Shown here: positions 4,356-12,627 of the stretch, piece by piece | How the letters are laid out: the number at the start of each line of letters is the position of its first letter | How positions within the stretch are numbered: position 1 is the first letter of the stretch | Virus record (IMG/VR): IMGVR_UViG_2534681658_000013 | Strand: one strand, 5' to 3' | Source: a virus | Lineage: Duplodnaviria; Heunggongvirae; Uroviricota; Caudoviricetes | DNA: 35,120 nt | Program-made: the position numbers and the translations under genes | Notes under the pieces: generated by a model | Database searches by the model: none | Told to the model about the DNA's origin: nothing | What the model saw: the letters and a program-made list of their open reading frames with translations, nothing else

Positions 4356-4787
4356 ATGGCAAAAGTATTTACACAAGAAGAGCGGGAAAAAATTAAAGGG
4401 CAGGTTGTTGAGCTAGTACGCCGGAGTGGGCGCGAGACGTTACGGCAACTGGAAGCCAAGACAGGTGCGACAAGATATCTGATGAGCGTTCTCGCCAGAG
4501 AGCTGGTTGCCAGTGGCGATGTATACAACTCTGGTTACGGGTTATTCCCGTCTGAACAGGCTCGTAAGGACTGGCAAAATGCCCGCAAAAAACTATCCAG
4601 GGCAAAGGTGAAGAAACCATCTGTGGTTGATCCGGACCTTATCTGGTCATTACCAGACGGAGAAATACGCCGCTACGACAGGCGTCTGAACATAATCTGT
4701 CGCGAGTGCCGGAAGAGCGAAGTTATGCAGCGTGTGCTGGCGTTTTATCAGAATGGTTTTCGAGAGAGGCTTGGAGATCAGGGATGA
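4356..4787 (+). CDS. Hypothetical phage protein
   Basis: ATG at 4356 with GGAGG RBS 7 nt upstream; 143 aa; last gene before the AT-rich island. Confidence 0.5.
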   Translation: MAKVFTQEEREKIKGQVVELVRRSGRETLRQLEAKTGATRYLMSVLARELVASGDVYNSGYGLFPSEQARKDWQNARKKLSRAKVKKPSVVDPDLIWSLPDGEIRRYDRRLNIICRECRKSEVMQRVLAFYQNGFRERLGDQG

Positions 4788-4980
4788 ATAGAACGATGAA
4801 GGATGGAAGCTACATATTCTCGGTACTAAGATTTATTTTTCTGACACAAAATGACCATTTGGCGTTACATAATCCCAAAAAAACGTATCAAAAATCTCAA
4901 AATGCGTTACGATTAGAGAGTATTTTGATTCTGCGTGCTCATTTTTTGATTGCTGTGGCTTTTTGTTGTGGGAGTGTTGA

Positions 4981-6135
4981 ATGGATTATTTATCAGAAGT
5001 GTTAAAAATCATTGAAGGTGCAACAAAGGCAAATGCTTCGATGGCTAGTAATTATGCTGGGTTGCTGGCAGATAAGCTCGAACAAAAAGGGGAGGTCAAG
5101 CAAGCCAGAATGATAAGAGAAAGGTTGCTTAGAGCTCCCCAGGCGTTGGCAGGAGCTCAAAGGGCTGGAGGTGGGATATCTCTGGGCTCATTACCGGTAG
5201 ATATTGATAGTCGACTCAACACTGTTGATGTCAGTTATCCTAAATTAGACAGTTCAGAGATTTTTCTGCCTGCAGCAATCAGTACCCGTGTTGAAGAGTT
5301 TATCACTAATGTTCAACGTTATGATGAGTTTGTTAAAGCTGATGCAGCATTGCCGAGTCGTATGCTCGTGTATGGAAAGCCAGGAACAGGTAAGACTATG
5401 TTATCTAAGTACATCGCTACCCGCTTAGATTTTCCACTTCTTACAGTGCGTTGCGATACTTTGATTAGTAGTTTATTGGGACAAACCAGCAAAAATCTTA
5501 GACAGGTTTTCGATTATGTAATGCAGAGGCCATCAGTGCTTTTTTTAGACGAATTTGATGCTTTAGCTGGAGCAAGAGGTAATGAGAGAGATATAGGTGA
5601 GCTTCAGCGAGTTGTCATTTCACTATTGCAGAATATGGATGCGGCATCAGAGGATACGGTAATTATTGCCTCAACTAACCATGAGCAACTTCTGGATCCT
5701 GCAATCTGGAGGCGATTTAGCTTCAGAATTCCAATGCCTCTGCCTGACATACATCAGAGAGAGTTAATTTGGAAAAATCGTTTAAAGAATATGATATGTA
5801 GCGATCTAGATTTAAGTGATTTATCAAGAAAATCGGAGGGATTATCCGGAGCAATAATTGAACAGGTGAGCTTGGATGCACGTAGGGATGCAGTTATTGA
5901 AGGTGCAAGTGTGATAAATCACCATAAATTGTATAGGCGTTTGTATCTTGCGCAATCGCTTATGGAAGGTGTAAATTTAAGCACTTACGAAGATGAAATT
6001 CGTTGGTTACGTTCTAAAGATAAAAAATTATTTTCTATCAGAGTTCTTGCTAATTTGTACAAACTTACATCAAGAGTAATTTCAAACATTCTGAAGGAGT
6101 CAGGAGCATATGAGCAGAAGGGGTACACAGTTTAG
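4981..6135 (+). CDS. AAA+ ATPase (classic AAA family), first gene of a candidate two-gene defence cassette (IetA-like?)
   Basis: Walker A GKPGTGKT (5374..5397), Walker B LFLDEFD (DE at 5548..5553), second region of homology STNHEQLLDPAIWRRF; GGGAGTG RBS before the ATG at 4981; AT-rich codon usage distinct from flanking phage genes. Confidence 0.85.
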   Translation: MDYLSEVLKIIEGATKANASMASNYAGLLADKLEQKGEVKQARMIRERLLRAPQALAGAQRAGGGISLGSLPVDIDSRLNTVDVSYPKLDSSEIFLPAAISTRVEEFITNVQRYDEFVKADAALPSRMLVYGKPGTGKTMLSKYIATRLDFPLLTVRCDTLISSLLGQTSKNLRQVFDYVMQRPSVLFLDEFDALAGARGNERDIGELQRVVISLLQNMDAASEDTVIIASTNHEQLLDPAIWRRFSFRIPMPLPDIHQRELIWKNRLKNMICSDLDLSDLSRKSEGLSGAIIEQVSLDARRDAVIEGASVINHHKLYRRLYLAQSLMEGVNLSTYEDEIRWLRSKDKKLFSIRVLANLYKLTSRVISNILKESGAYEQKGYTV

Positions 6136-8374
6136 TAACGCAAAAGTTACAAACCCAATGTTAAGAATCCCTTTTTCCAGTAGTGACTTGGGTGCAATAG
6201 TAAACGCTGGCGGTGGGGCAAAGGTATTGGTTGATGTAACAGCCGAATATAGACAAGGGCTAGTAAGAAATTTAACAACCAGTAAACATTATTTAGAATC
6301 CAAACTTTCAGAGTACCCTGGAAGCTTGGGTACTTTGGTTTTCAAATTAAGAGACCAGGGAATAGCCAAAACGCATAGGCCGAACAAAATTGCTCAAGAG
6401 GCTGGATTGCAAAATGCCGGTCATGCCAAAATAGATGAAATGTTGGTTGCTGCTCATGCCGGCTGTTTTGACGTATTAGAGTCAGTCATTTTACATCGGA
6501 ATATTAAAGCGATTTTGGCTAATCTAAGCGCGATTGAGCGCATTGAACCTTGGGATGAGAATAGGAAGGTTCCAGGAGGCACTGATGGTTTGTTTGAATC
6601 ATCAAACATCCTTGTACGACTATTTGAGTACACAGGTGAAGATGCAACTTACAACAACTATGAAAACGTTATTTCTATATTAGAACAACACGGAGTTAAA
6701 TATGATGAGATTAGACCAAAATGTGGTCTTCCCTTATTAAGGATAATGGATTTATCCCCAAATGATAGATATATATTAGACATTCTCATTGATTACCCGG
6801 GTATAAGAACGTTAATTCCAGAACCAAAATATTCAGCATTCCCGGTTAGTGTAAGTGATTCTGTTGGCATTGAAACAAATAGCTTTCCCGTACCATCAGA
6901 AGAATTACCCATTGTTGCTGTATTTGACACTGGGGTAAGCCCCATCGCGGCAACAATTACTCCTTGGGTAGTGAGTAGGGAAACATACGTAATTCCTCCT
7001 GATACGAGTTATGAACATGGGACTATGGTGTCTTCATTGATATCAGGCGCTCATTTTTTAAATGACAATCATCCATGGATTCCTGATACAAAATCTAAAA
7101 TCCATGATGTTTGTGCTTTAGATGGAAATGGATCTTATATATCAGATTTAATTCTGAGGCTAGCAGATGCTGTAAATAAAAGACCAGATATAAAAGTCTG
7201 GAATTTGTCTTTGGGAGGCGGACCATGTAATGAGCAGATGTTTAGTGATTTTGCGATGGAGTTAGATCGGCTCAGCGATAAATTTGGTATTTTGTTTGTA
7301 GTTGCTGCAGGTAATTATGTAGATGAACCTATACGTACATGGCCAAATCCTGATCCGCTTGGAGGTGCTGATTTAATTTCCTCTCCTGGAGAGTCAGTCC
7401 GAGCACTAACAGTTGGTTCAGTTTCTCATATGGAAGCTAATGATGCTTTAAGTGAAATTGGAACACCGACACCATATACTCGTCGTGGCCCTGGGCCTGT
7501 ATTTACTCCAAAGCCAGATATAATCCATGCTGGCGGTGGGGTTCATAGACCTTGGAATGTAGGAGCAAGCAGTTTAAAGGTCGTAGGGCCAGATAATAGG
7601 CTTTGCTCTAATTTTGGTACTAGTTTTGCTGCTCCAATTGTGGCAAGTTTAGCTGCGCATACATGGCAGAGAATAGCCACTAATTCAGACTTTAATGTTT
7701 CACCATCATTGATTAAAGCATTATTAATTCATTCCGCTCAATTATCTTCTCCTGATTACTCGCCAAGTGAAAGACGCTATTTGGGAGCGGGAATTCCTAA
7801 TGAGGTTATTGAGACCTTATATGATAGTGATGATAGGTTTACTCTGATTTTCCAAACATTCTTGGTTCCTGGGGTGAGGTGGAGAAAGGAAAACTATCCC
7901 ATACCATCGGCACTTATTCAAAATGGAAAATTTAAAGGTGAGATTGTAATTACTGCTGCATATGCACCACCACTGAACTCTAATGCCGGCAGTGAATATG
8001 TTCGCGCGAACGTAGAGCTAAGTTTTGGCTTAATTGAGAATAATACTATAAAAGGAAAAGTACCTATGGAAGGAGAAAACGGTCAATCTGGATATGAGAG
8101 AGCTCAAATTGAGCATGGTGGAAAGTGGTCACCAGTAAAAATTCATCGCAAGGCATTTAATAAAGGAATTACTTCGGGTAACTGGGCTCTTCAAGCTAAA
8201 ACAACGTTGAGAGCGAATGAACCGGCCTTAATGGAGCCTTTACCTGTAACTATTGTAGTAACTTTAAAATCATTAGATGGAAACACACAAGTTTATGCTG
8301 ATGGCGTAAGAGCTTTAAATGCTAATAACTGGGCTCACTATCCATTGCCTGCTCGTGTGCCAGTTTCCGTATAA
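6110..8374 (+). CDS. Subtilisin-like serine peptidase (MEROPS S8) with large N- and C-terminal domains of unknown function; second gene of the cassette (IetS-like?)
   Basis: Catalytic triad in subtilase order: Asp in VAVFDTGVS (codon 6926..6928), His in HGTMVS (7016..7018), Ser in GTSFAAP (7622..7624). No N-terminal signal peptide. AGGAG RBS; the start overlaps the ATPase gene by 26 nt. Confidence 0.85.
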   Translation: MSRRGTQFSNAKVTNPMLRIPFSSSDLGAIVNAGGGAKVLVDVTAEYRQGLVRNLTTSKHYLESKLSEYPGSLGTLVFKLRDQGIAKTHRPNKIAQEAGLQNAGHAKIDEMLVAAHAGCFDVLESVILHRNIKAILANLSAIERIEPWDENRKVPGGTDGLFESSNILVRLFEYTGEDATYNNYENVISILEQHGVKYDEIRPKCGLPLLRIMDLSPNDRYILDILIDYPGIRTLIPEPKYSAFPVSVSDSVGIETNSFPVPSEELPIVAVFDTGVSPIAATITPWVVSRETYVIPPDTSYEHGTMVSSLISGAHFLNDNHPWIPDTKSKIHDVCALDGNGSYISDLILRLADAVNKRPDIKVWNLSLGGGPCNEQMFSDFAMELDRLSDKFGILFVVAAGNYVDEPIRTWPNPDPLGGADLISSPGESVRALTVGSVSHMEANDALSEIGTPTPYTRRGPGPVFTPKPDIIHAGGGVHRPWNVGASSLKVVGPDNRLCSNFGTSFAAPIVASLAAHTWQRIATNSDFNVSPSLIKALLIHSAQLSSPDYSPSERRYLGAGIPNEVIETLYDSDDRFTLIFQTFLVPGVRWRKENYPIPSALIQNGKFKGEIVITAAYAPPLNSNAGSEYVRANVELSFGLIENNTIKGKVPMEGENGQSGYERAQIEHGGKWSPVKIHRKAFNKGITSGNWALQAKTTLRANEPALMEPLPVTIVVTLKSLDGNTQVYADGVRALNANNWAHYPLPARVPVSV

Positions 8375-8385
8375 CAACTATATAA

Positions 8386-8418
8386 ATCAAACCCGCTGTA
8401 GCGGGTTTGATTTATTTG
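8386..8418 (+). terminator. Rho-independent terminator after the peptidase gene
   Basis: Perfect hairpin aaacccgc-tgta-gcgggttt followed by a T-rich tract (gatttatttg); the palindrome could act in both directions. Confidence 0.6.
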
Positions 8419-8782
8419 TGGGTGTGTTTTATAAAAATACCGCCCATACACAACAAAATACAAAAAGTATTACAGATAAAAAAGGAGCGTAATGTGCAGA
8501 TTTGTTGTTTTCCATATTTACTCACCTTAATATGATTAATCCCGATAAGATTGTTATTTCAGCGGTTTTCAAATGAAATATTATGCTAATTTGGCAGATT
8601 TGCATAACATTAAAATTTAATTTATCTAACCGCTTTTAATAATAAGCGTTGTATTTTTATCCCAGCAATCTGTTGTTTGGTTTTTATTCCATTAAGGTGG
8701 GGCTTTACACTGGAGCCAGTTTATTTATACTTCATACGTCAGCCTGAACAACTGGCACCTGCTGCGCCAGCAGAGAAAACAG

Positions 8783-11463: not shown

Positions 11464-11539
11464 GGCCCTTTAGCTCAGTGGTGAGAGCGAGCGACTCATA
11501 ATCGCCAGGTCGCTGGTTCAAATCCAGCAAGGGCCACCA
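11464..11539 (+). tRNA. tRNA-Ile2 (anticodon CAU, lysidine type; ileX/ileZ-like)
   Basis: Hand-folded cloverleaf: acceptor GGCCCTT/AAGGGCC, D-stem GCTC/GAGC, anticodon loop CTCATAA, T-arm GCTGG-TTCAAAT-CCAGC, encoded CCA. Very close to my recollection of E. coli ileX, so more likely Ile2 than elongator Met. Confidence 0.8.
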
Positions 11540-11639: not shown

Positions 11640-11713
11640 GCGTTGTTAGCTCAGCCGGACAGAGCAATTGCCTTCTAAGCAATCGGTCACTGGTTCGAAT
11701 CCAGTACAGCGCG
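11640..11713 (+). tRNA. tRNA-Arg (anticodon UCU, reads AGA)
   Basis: Hand-folded cloverleaf: acceptor GCGTTGT/ACAGCGC (one G-U pair), anticodon stem ATTGC/GCAAT with loop CTTCTAA, T-arm ACTGG-TTCGAAT-CCAGT; CCA not encoded. Resembles argN/argO-type tRNAs of lambdoid prophages. Confidence 0.75.
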
Positions 11714-11826
11714 CTATATTCATTCTTCCAGATTCCTTCCGGCAGAGCCTTATACTGAAATATACCTGGCTCAGGATATTGTTGAAAATATTTTATGTTT
11801 GTCAAAAATAAAAGTTCTGTTAAGTA

Positions 11827-12180: not shown

Positions 12181-12571
12181 ATACATATCTGGATTATCAC
12201 TTGTTACGGTAAAAAGTGATTGCTTACTGTTTTTGTGAGTGGCATTGCAGCAGCCGGATAATGTCAGTGCTGGCTGACGGTGTGCTGGTGGCGGGTGTGG
12301 TGGTTGTTGCTTTCCCGTTGCTGAAAAAGAAAACGCCAGACTGTTAGCCGGGTATCAGTTAGCGGGAGAAATTTTTAAATACTTCACAATTCAGGCGGTT
12401 GACTGTTGTCTGGTTTGCGGGGAGTTTGTTAAAAGAAACTGGCATGGTGAATCCCCCTGTGCGGAGGGGCAATCAGCGAGTAGGTATATGGGATAATCGC
12501 GGATTCAGGTGCTGGTACTGAATTCACCGGGAGGCACCCGGCACCATGCAATGGCACATAGCGCCACTCTC

Positions 12572-12600
12572 CAGCCCCTCTCCGGAGGGGCTGTTTATAT
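12572..12600 (+). terminator. Strong intrinsic terminator hairpin
   Basis: 9-bp perfect stem cagcccctc-tccg-gaggggctg followed by TTTATATTGATTTT. Confidence 0.5.
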
Positions 12601-12627
12601 TGATTTTGTCAGATGTGAGTAAACTCC

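What the first reader, a model, noticed from the sequence alone, without database searches (positions are those of the whole stretch)
4981..8374. Overlapping AAA+ ATPase and intracellular S8 subtilase cassette in a prophage cargo island: candidate anti-phage defence system (IetAS-like?)
Two genes with a 26-nt overlap encode a classic AAA ATPase (intact Walker A and B and second region of homology) and a 754-aa subtilisin-like protease with an intact Asp/His/Ser triad and no signal peptide. Neither has an obvious role in a lambda life cycle, and both sit in an AT-rich block between the replication and nin-like modules, a typical place for phage-borne defence cargo. An ATPase plus S8 peptidase pair was reported as the IetAS defence system (Gao et al. 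2020, recalled from memory); this could be a member or a distinct relative. The mechanism of any such pair is essentially uncharacterised, so it is the most promising locus in the window.
Basis: partly seen in the sequence, partly recalled or inferred. Interest (0 to 1): 0.85.

Follow-up and report, generated by a model that had tools for sequence, protein, structure and literature searches.

The report
Known IetAS defence pair in prophage
The two overlapping genes are a textbook copy of IetAS (IteA/IteS), an already catalogued ATPase-plus-protease toxin-antitoxin/anti-phage system carried as cargo by a lambda-like E. coli prophage, so the locus is real but ordinary, even though nobody yet knows what the protease cuts.

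Summary
Window 4981-6135 encodes a 384-aa classic AAA+ ATPase and 6110-8374 a 754-aa cytoplasmic S8 subtilase. They overlap by 26 nt and lie in a 39% GC block inside a 53% GC lambdoid prophage.

Both proteins match the PADLOC IetA/IetS models end to end (E 9e-143, 8e-300). Both pass the curated NCBIfam equivalog cut-offs for IteA/IteS. RefSeq annotates the same cassette, at least 99.5% identical, as iteA/iteS in 78 of 5426 complete E. coli genomes. The primers used by Wu et al. to clone the ECOR52 ietAS system fit this cassette type: the forward primer matches the window exactly, the reverse primer a 99.3%-identical phage copy.

Most likely mechanism, from the literature on homologues plus the anatomy here: IetS is a toxic protease held in check by the IetA ATPase. 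A phage cue releases it and infection aborts. The substrate and the sensing step remain unknown in the field.

Minor additions from this work:
- The slot after the Ren-like gene is a variable cargo hotspot.
- The gene overlap is conserved across genera.
- A conserved upstream element (GTATCA-N13-GCGTTACGAT) travels with the cassette.
- IetA ends in a possible helix-turn-helix, which hints at autoregulation.

Novelty: already known. Interest: low.

The parts
4788..8390 (+). Whole cargo cassette (AT-rich, about 39% GC), between the stop of the Ren-like/DUF977 gene and the shared terminator/backbone sequence
   Evidence: On the left, homology to other prophages ends at the 3' end of the DUF977 gene. 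On the right, homology to the sequence 3' of hok in other prophages resumes at about 8391. The ECOR52 cloning primer starts exactly at 4788.
4885..4913 (+). Conserved promoter/operator-like element GTATCA-N13-GCGTTACGAT, 96 to 68 nt upstream of the iteA ATG
   Evidence: The element is identical or nearly so upstream of iteA in Citrobacter, Klebsiella, P. aeruginosa and Burkholderiales. The 10-mer SCGTTACRVT occurs in 22 of 75 upstream regions against 3 hits in 1.1 Mb of background. It can be read as -35 GTATCA / 17 nt / -10 TACGAT, which falls below the consensus scan threshold.
4970..4974 (+). Shine-Dalgarno GGGAG for iteA, 6 nt before the ATG
   Evidence: Read directly from the sequence.
4981..6135 (+). 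iteA/ietA: 384-aa AAA+ ATPase, the antitoxin/regulator. It has an N-terminal helical region (res 1-62), a classic-clade AAA module (res about 98-330) and a C-terminal three-helix HTH-like module (res 336-372, nt 5986-6096).
   Evidence: Family matches: PADLOC IetA E 8.9e-143 at full length; NCBIfam IteA equivalog 526.6 bits against a cut-off of 510; Pfam AAA E 2.6e-30. The AF2 model has pLDDT 78. Foldseek hits are to FtsH, PAN, p97 D2 and Vps4. The HTH evidence is weak.
6093..6106 (+). Shine-Dalgarno region for iteS (GAAGGAG ... AGGAG), lying inside the 3' end of iteA. This suggests translational coupling.
   Evidence: Sequence read. The overlap is conserved in most of 70 loci from other genera.
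6110..8374 (+). iteS/ietS: 754-aa cytoplasmic S8 subtilase, the toxin/effector. It has an N-terminal alpha/beta domain of unknown fold (res 1-260), the S8 catalytic domain (res about 265-560; D273, H303, N365, S505) and a C-terminal beta-sandwich (res about 570-754).
8382..8415 (.). Stem-loop 7 nt after the iteS stop, with a 15-bp stem (GC core AACCCGC / GCGGGTT) followed by TTTATTTG on the + strand. It is a probable intrinsic terminator. Its core is shared with the terminator after hok in other prophages.

Best explanation
This is a canonical two-gene IetAS system (NCBI names IteA/IteS), carried as non-essential cargo (a moron) by a lambda-like E. coli prophage. It sits right after the Ren-like gene and before the nin-like genes.

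Proposed working. The two genes are made together from an overlapping, translationally coupled operon, probably with its own weak promoter and terminator. IetS is a cytoplasmic subtilisin-like protease that is toxic when free. IetA is a classic-clade AAA+ ATPase of the kind that forms hexamers and remodels or unfolds proteins, and it uses ATP to keep IetS harmless.

When another phage infects the lysogen, a phage protein or the disturbance it causes breaks this restraint. IetS then cleaves one or more essential proteins, and the cell stops growing or dies before the invader completes its cycle (abortive infection). This protects sister lysogens and the resident prophage. The same toxin-antitoxin logic would also penalise loss of the element.

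Basis for each step:
- Shown here: identity, anatomy, context and conservation.
- Shown in the literature for homologues: toxin/antitoxin roles, the need for protease activity, the abortive phenotype, and a phage protein trigger.
- Inferred: the way IetA restrains IetS, the identity of the substrate and trigger for this E. coli copy, expression in the lysogen, and possible autoregulation through a C-terminal HTH and the conserved upstream element.

Confidence that it is IetAS is about 0.97. Confidence in the mechanism as sketched is about 0.5.
For: Identity. Both proteins match the PADLOC IetA/IetS models at full length. Both pass the NCBIfam equivalog cut-offs. RefSeq annotates the cassette as iteA/iteS at 100% identity in strain TW10722 and at 99.5% or more in 78 genomes.

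Enzyme competence. All ATPase and protease catalytic motifs are intact and invariant. The proteins are soluble and cytoplasmic.

IetA kind. Its closest sequence and fold relatives are protein-translocating AAA modules: p97 D2, Cdc48, PAN/Rpt, FtsH and Vps4. The pore-loop-1 position reads L165-L166-G167 and is invariant or nearly so.

Operon logic. The ATPase-then-protease order with overlapping genes is seen in most of 70 loci from many genera, and in the founding Rhizobiaceae plasmid type.

Cargo status. The cassette is AT-rich. Related prophages carry other cargo in the same slot: DUF262 plus an AAA ATPase, other genes, and hok. Homologues in Klebsiella occupy the same slot of lambdoid prophages. 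Full-length PHROG families exist for both proteins.

Literature:
- IetS is a toxin and IetA an antitoxin on pTiC58. Protease activity is needed for defence. ietA mutants could not be built (PMC13069673).
- In mycoplasma, losing the ATPase is lethal unless the protease is also lost (PMC8562856).
- B. cereus IetAS acts by abortive infection and is triggered by SPbeta YosG (bioRxiv 2022.08.27.505566).
- The ECOR52 ietAS was tested against 29 phages and synergises with Zorya II against T3. Its cloning primers fit this cassette type.
Against: Nothing was measured for this copy, neither expression, toxicity nor protection.

The ECOR52 version gave only limited protection on its own, and it was expressed from pBAD rather than from its native promoter.

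The consensus scan found no promoter in the 193-nt upstream gap at its threshold. Expression in the lysogen therefore rests on a conserved but weak-looking element.

Pore loop 1 lacks the usual aromatic residue (LLG instead of aromatic-hydrophobic-Gly). Substrate threading by IetA is therefore not assured.

The trigger known for the Bacillus homologue need not apply here. That homologue is only distantly related.
Confidence: 0.85

Rival explanations
1. The pair serves mainly as an addiction (post-segregational killing) module that stabilises the prophage in its host, as IetAS does for plasmid pTiC58. On this view any anti-phage effect is secondary.
For: IetAS was first described as a plasmid-stabilising toxin-antitoxin pair (cited). 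Other prophages carry a hok toxin in the same slot. The ECOR52 system alone gave only limited phage protection.
Against: Homologues do protect against phage, and one acts by abortive infection with a defined phage trigger. An integrated prophage is rarely lost by segregation, so stabilisation offers less benefit. The neighbouring alternative cargo includes defence-like gene sets. The two roles are not mutually exclusive.
Confidence: 0.12
2. The protease and ATPase work for the resident phage itself, for example in virion maturation, lysis timing or host takeover during induction. They are transcribed from pR as part of the early operon.
For: The cassette lies on the pR-transcribed strand between the replication genes and the Q antiterminator. 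No strong consensus promoter was called upstream.
Against: The prophage has its own head-maturation protease (S49 family) and a full lambda-like late region. Closely related prophages lack the cassette or carry unrelated genes in the slot. The same pair occurs on plasmids, on ICEs and in non-phage chromosomal sites. It carries its own conserved upstream element and terminator.
Confidence: 0.02
3. The cassette is an inert or decaying passenger with no current function.
For: Two of the 78 E. coli copies have a broken iteS, and one has an IS3 insertion.
Against: Both ORFs are intact here with every catalytic residue in place. Copies are 99.5% identical or more in 76 intact instances. Orthologues at 50-85% identity keep full length, the motifs and the overlap across many genera.
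Confidence: 0.01

Closest known systems
IetAS anti-phage system (Gao et al. 2020; PADLOC IetA/IetS; NCBIfam NF042959 IteA and NF042956 IteS)
   Same: Same two proteins, same order and same strand. Both give full-length profile matches above the curated cut-offs. RefSeq gives this very sequence those names.
   Different: Nothing detectable. This is a member. Whether the exact clone tested by Gao et al. is this lineage could not be checked, because the paper is not in the held library.
ietAS of E. coli ECOR52, tested by Wu et al. (Synergistic anti-phage activity of bacterial defence systems)
   Same: The forward cloning primer matches window 4788-4810 exactly. The reverse primer matches the 99.3%-identical copy in phage vB_EcoS-683R6, 393 nt after iteS. 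It is therefore the same cassette type with the same upstream region.
   Different: The backbone downstream of the AT-rich spacer differs: DUF1367-type nin genes there, DUF968/RusA here. The ECOR52 sequence itself was not available for comparison.
IetA/IetS toxin-antitoxin pair of Agrobacterium Ti/Ri plasmids (Yamamoto et al. 2009, the founding members)
   Same: Same ATPase-then-protease order. IetA is 39% identical over residues 4-307, including the N-terminal region. IetS is 28% identical over the protease and C-terminal domains. Both IetA types end in an HTH-like segment.
   Different: It is a distant subfamily. The IetS N-terminal 260 residues do not align. The genes are separated by 52 nt rather than overlapping. 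The pair is plasmid-borne and was described for plasmid stability and incompatibility.
ietHAS (Liu-DS4; NAR 2026, PMC13069673), as in E. coli E24377A
   Same: AAA ATPase plus S8 protease core. Protease activity is required, and the ATPase behaves as an antitoxin.
   Different: ietHAS has an essential SNF2 helicase upstream and sits next to type III restriction-modification-like genes. Its proteins are only 42% (ATPase core) and 25% (protease) identical to those here. The window has a Ren-like phage gene upstream and no helicase.
Mycoplasma AAA-ATPase/subtilisin-like protease TA module (TA132/133; PMC8562856) and B. cereus m1293 IetAS (Stokar-Avihail et al.)
   Same: Same two-component logic. 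The protease is the toxin and the ATPase the antitoxin. The Bacillus system shows an abortive infection phenotype with a phage-protein trigger.
   Different: Both come from distant lineages (Firmicutes/Mollicutes). Their sequences were not compared here. The trigger (SPbeta YosG) comes from a Bacillus phage.

Membership tests
IetAS (IteA/IteS) defence system | An AAA+ ATPase that matches the IetA family profile over its full length | tested here: met
   PADLOC PDLC02196 gives E 8.9e-143 over residues 1-374 of 384. The NCBIfam NF042959 equivalog scores 526.6 bits against a cut-off of 510.
IetAS (IteA/IteS) defence system | An S8 subtilase that matches the IetS family profile over its full length | tested here: met
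   PADLOC PDLC02197 gives E 8.4e-300 over residues 12-753. The NCBIfam NF042956 equivalog scores 1039.4 bits against a cut-off of 900.
IetAS (IteA/IteS) defence system | The two genes are adjacent, on the same strand, with the ATPase first | tested here: met
   The genes overlap by 26 nt. The same order and an overlap are seen in most of 70 loci elsewhere.
IetAS (IteA/IteS) defence system | Catalytically competent ATPase (Walker A/B, sensor 1, Arg fingers) and protease (Asp/His/Ser triad) | tested here: met
IetAS (IteA/IteS) defence system | Protects cells against phage infection | not testable with these tools
   The only evidence is from the literature on homologues. The published ECOR52 primers fit this cassette type, and that system gave limited protection alone.
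IetAS as a toxin-antitoxin pair | IetS is toxic alone and IetA neutralises it | not testable with these tools
   This has been reported for pTiC58, ietHAS and mycoplasma homologues. It was not measured for this copy.
ietHAS three-gene variant | An SNF2-family helicase gene (ietH) in the operon | tested here: not met
   The upstream gene is DUF977/Ren-like and the downstream genes are nin-like. The E24377A ietHAS proteins are only 25-42% identical.
CBASS-associated TRIP13/HORMA regulators | A TRIP13-like AAA ATPase next to HORMA and CD-NTase genes | tested here: not met
   The TRIP13 profile hits are weak (E 2.4e-16) and far below the IetA hits. No HORMA or cyclase gene lies nearby.

The most novel reading that the evidence does not exclude
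IetA may be more than an ATPase antitoxin. It may also be a DNA-binding autoregulator. On this reading its C-terminal three-helix module is an HTH that binds the conserved upstream element (two CGnnAC-like half sites 21 bp apart, ending in CGTTACGAT, overlapping the -10). Transcription of the toxin-antitoxin operon would then be coupled to the state of the AAA+ ring, and the same element would serve as promoter and operator from enterobacteria to actinobacteria. No paper seen here's searches describes such an element or domain for IetAS.
Probability: 0.3. Interest if true: 0.35.

Novelty: already known. Interest (0 to 1): 0.14.

Why it matters
For genome annotation the matter is settled. This is a catalogued defence/toxin-antitoxin system in a typical prophage cargo slot.

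The system class is still worth study. The protease substrate, the way an AAA+ ATPase restrains a subtilase, and the phage cue for the enterobacterial type are all unknown, and no structure exists. Protease-based abortive infection also has parallels in eukaryotic immunity.

This particular copy adds little beyond a convenient natural context: a lambdoid prophage with a defined promoter/operator-like element and terminator.

The small points found here could guide construct design for mechanistic work. They are the conserved upstream element, the conserved gene overlap, the HTH-like tail on IetA, and the unmatched N-terminal domain on IetS.

Tried and rejected
1. Reading Gao et al. 2020 and Yamamoto et al. 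2009 directly. Neither is held. Their content is cited only through papers that quote them.

2. Searching papers for the RefSeq protein accessions and for the names IteA/IteS. No hits. A whole-word search for IetA/IetS returned mostly unrelated acronyms.

3. Searching for a solved IetS or IetA structure. None exists, only generic subtilases and AAA proteins.

4. A consensus promoter scan of the upstream gap found nothing at threshold. The conserved element was found by comparative alignment instead.

5. Pfam on the isolated IetA N- and C-terminal segments found nothing, even at E 10. A profile of the C-terminus against PDB sequences hit only mitoribosomal proteins (E 3e-4). hhalign to the pRi IetA HTH aligned the expected helices but with only 10% probability. 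The HTH reading therefore stays a hypothesis.

7. A regular expression meant to relate recognition-helix variants to upstream-motif variants failed to match, and I did not pursue it.

8. The rivals considered and rejected are a secreted protease, a phage maturation protease, a TRIP13-like CBASS regulator and the ietHAS variant. Reasons are given in the rival explanations and the membership test.
Full report
**Observation**

The ORF list shows two + strand genes, 4981..6135 (384 aa) and 6110..8374 (754 aa), overlapping by 26 nt.

The first protein carries an intact Walker A (G132-T139), Walker B (D190/E191), sensor-1 N233 and paired arginines R244/R245. The second carries D273, H303, oxyanion N365 and S505 in the usual subtilase motifs. 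All of these are invariant or nearly so in alignments of 57 and 65 homologues.

Neither protein has a hydrophobic stretch that would make a signal peptide or membrane segment.

The cassette and its flanking spacers are 39% GC against 53% for the rest of the window.

ATG 6110 is preceded by GAAGGAG and AGGAG. The alternative ATG 6158, used in one phage record, has no Shine-Dalgarno sequence.

**Identity**

- Against PADLOC, the ATPase hits IetA (PDLC02196, E 8.9e-143, residues 1-374) and the protease hits IetS (PDLC02197, E 8.4e-300, residues 12-753).
- Against NCBIfam, both pass the curated equivalog cut-offs: IteA 526.6 bits against 510, and IteS 1039.4 bits against 900.
- Pfam sees only the generic AAA and Peptidase_S8 domains.
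- Megablast against 5426 complete E. coli genomes finds the 3.4-kb cassette in 78 of them. It is always single-copy, chromosomal, 99.5% identical or more, and annotated iteA/iteS. Strain TW10722 is 100% identical. A more sensitive blastn adds only one distant copy.
- One deposited phage, vB_EcoS-683R6, carries it at 99.3%.
- Both proteins also fall in full-length PHROG families of unknown function.

**Context**

In TW10722 the window is a lambda-like prophage integrated beside ompW. It has integrase, exonuclease, repressor/Cro-like genes and O-like/DnaC-like replication genes. Then come DUF1627, DUF977 (a Ren-like exclusion protein in PHROGs), iteA-iteS, and the nin-like set (DUF968, RusA, Q). 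These are followed by two tRNAs, lysis genes and a full lambda-type head and tail module with its own S49 head protease.

The slot after the Ren-like gene is a cargo hotspot. Strain AQ15 holds DUF262 plus an AAA ATPase plus a hypothetical gene plus hok there. Strain UID2309220031 holds other genes plus hok.

The AT-rich spacer after iteS (about 8391-8765) is backbone sequence. It is homologous to what follows hok in those prophages. The junction falls within the terminator stem-loop 8382-8415.

On the left, homology between prophages ends at the 3' end of the DUF977 gene.

Klebsiella orthologues (74% identical) occupy the same slot of lambdoid prophages with the same 26-nt overlap. A P. aeruginosa orthologue lies at a prophage edge with a 44-nt overlap.

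**What is known**

Papers held in the library state the following:

- IetAS was first found as a plasmid-stabilising toxin-antitoxin pair on pTiC58, with the protease as toxin and the ATPase as antitoxin.
- Gao et al. 2020 showed anti-phage activity that depends on the protease.
- ietA mutants cannot be constructed.
- The anti-phage mechanism remains unknown (PMC13069673).
- A mycoplasma homologue behaves the same way (PMC8562856).
- A B. cereus IetAS acts by abortive infection and is triggered by the SPbeta protein YosG.
- Wu et al. cloned ietAS from ECOR52, found limited activity alone, and found synergy with Zorya II against T3. They also noted that ietAS is often prophage-borne.

The Wu et al. 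forward primer matches window 4788-4810 exactly. Their reverse primer matches the 683R6 copy 393 nt after iteS. The published ECOR52 primers therefore fit this cassette type, although the ECOR52 sequence itself was not available for comparison.

The commoner E. coli 'ietAS', as in E24377A, is the three-gene ietHAS form. It has an SNF2 helicase and sits beside type III restriction-modification-like genes. Its proteins are only 25-42% identical to those here.

The founding Rhizobiaceae plasmid type is 39% (IetA) and 28% (IetS) identical and has the same gene order.

**Structure-based anatomy**

The IetA model (pLDDT 78) has three parts: an N-terminal helical region, a classic-clade AAA module and three short C-terminal helices. 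The AAA module is closest to FtsH, PAN/Rpt, p97 D2 and Vps4.

At the pore-loop-1 position IetA has an invariant or near-invariant L165-L166-G167. The placement of this motif is by my own alignment to p97 D2.

**Small additions**

1. The overlap between the genes is conserved. In about 60 of 70 loci from many genera, the first in-frame ATG of the protease lies 20-83 nt before the ATPase stop. This fits translational coupling.

2. A conserved element lies upstream of iteA: GTATCA-N13-GCGTTACGAT at 4885-4913. The 10-mer SCGTTACRVT occurs 44-77 nt upstream of iteA in 22 of 75 loci, including Pseudomonas, Burkholderiales and two actinobacteria. It occurs only 3 times in 1.1 Mb of background. It can be read as a -35/-10 pair with 17-nt spacing, or as two CGnnAC-like half-sites 21 bp apart.

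3. The IetA C-terminus (FSIRVLANLYKLTSRVISNILKE) looks like a helix-turn-helix. The corresponding tail of the pRi IetA gives sub-threshold hits to several Pfam HTH families (HTH_23 E 1.3e-4). hhalign aligns the two tails helix for helix, but with low probability. Pfam finds nothing on the E. coli tail itself. I rate autoregulation by IetA as a hypothesis at about 0.3.

**Mechanism and rivals**

The best-supported account is a toxin-antitoxin/abortive-infection system:

- IetS is the effector protease.
- IetA is the ATP-dependent restraint.
- A phage cue releases IetS.

The steps concerning restraint, trigger and substrate are inferred.

The main rival is a primary role in stabilising the prophage. 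It is compatible with the same biochemistry and I give it about 0.12. A role in the resident phage's own cycle, or an inert passenger, are both unlikely for the reasons listed under the rival explanations.

**Verdict**

The locus is a known, annotated member of a known system. Its novelty is nil and its interest is low, apart from the general open question of how IetAS works.

Noticed in passing
window 4788-8390 versus L004 5777-6400, L005 1941-6400 and L006 2401-6340: The slot between the Ren-like/DUF977 gene and the nin-like genes is a variable cargo hotspot in lambdoid E. coli prophages. Alternatives include a DUF262 + AAA ATPase + hypothetical set (possibly another defence system), a Q-like gene plus a 477-aa hypothetical plus a nucleoid-associated protein, and a hok toxin.
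   Followed up: partly
window 8391-8765: This AT-rich non-coding spacer is phage backbone, not cassette. It is homologous to the sequence just 3' of hok in other prophages and is present in 390 genomes, against 78 with iteAS. The window itself lacks hok. The junction falls inside a shared terminator core (AACCCGC...GCGGGTT).
   Followed up: partly
window 12413-12602 (+): Rfam gives a full-length match to the sRNA STnc100 (132 bits; gathering score 47), downstream of the Q antiterminator and the tRNAs.
   Followed up: no
window 11464-11539 and 11640-11714 (+): Two phage-borne tRNA genes follow the Q gene. One has anticodon CAT (called Met by ARAGORN, annotated tRNA-Ile in RefSeq). The other is tRNA-Arg (TCT).
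   Followed up: no
window 5986-6096 (IetA residues 336-372): The C-terminal three-helix segment of IetA resembles a helix-turn-helix. The equivalent tail of the Agrobacterium pRi IetA gives sub-threshold hits to several Pfam HTH families. The support is weak.
   Followed up: partly
[not shown]
   Followed up: partly
hits H142, H143 and H16 (NZ_AP040205.1, NZ_CP196120.1, NZ_CP043542.1): In two of the 78 E. coli genomes iteS appears broken, being annotated as an S8 peptidase plus a hypothetical protein. In one genome an IS3-family element is inserted in the cassette region.
   Followed up: no
L088 (E. coli E24377A, NC_009801.1 3331500-3338000): The locus that PADLOC-based surveys call ietAS in E24377A is the three-gene ietHAS form (SNF2 helicase + AAA + S8). 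It lies directly beside a DNA methyltransferase and a DEAD/DEAH helicase. This would explain the reported co-localisation of ietAS with type III restriction-modification. RefSeq does not name those genes iteA/iteS.
   Followed up: partly
L002 8085-11675 (phage vB_EcoS-683R6, ON470595): The deposited phage record mislabels iteA as 'cell division protein FtsH'. It calls a doubtful upstream ORF 'kinase (fragment)', which corresponds to window ORF 4706-5005. It starts iteS at the internal ATG that lacks a Shine-Dalgarno sequence.
   Followed up: partly
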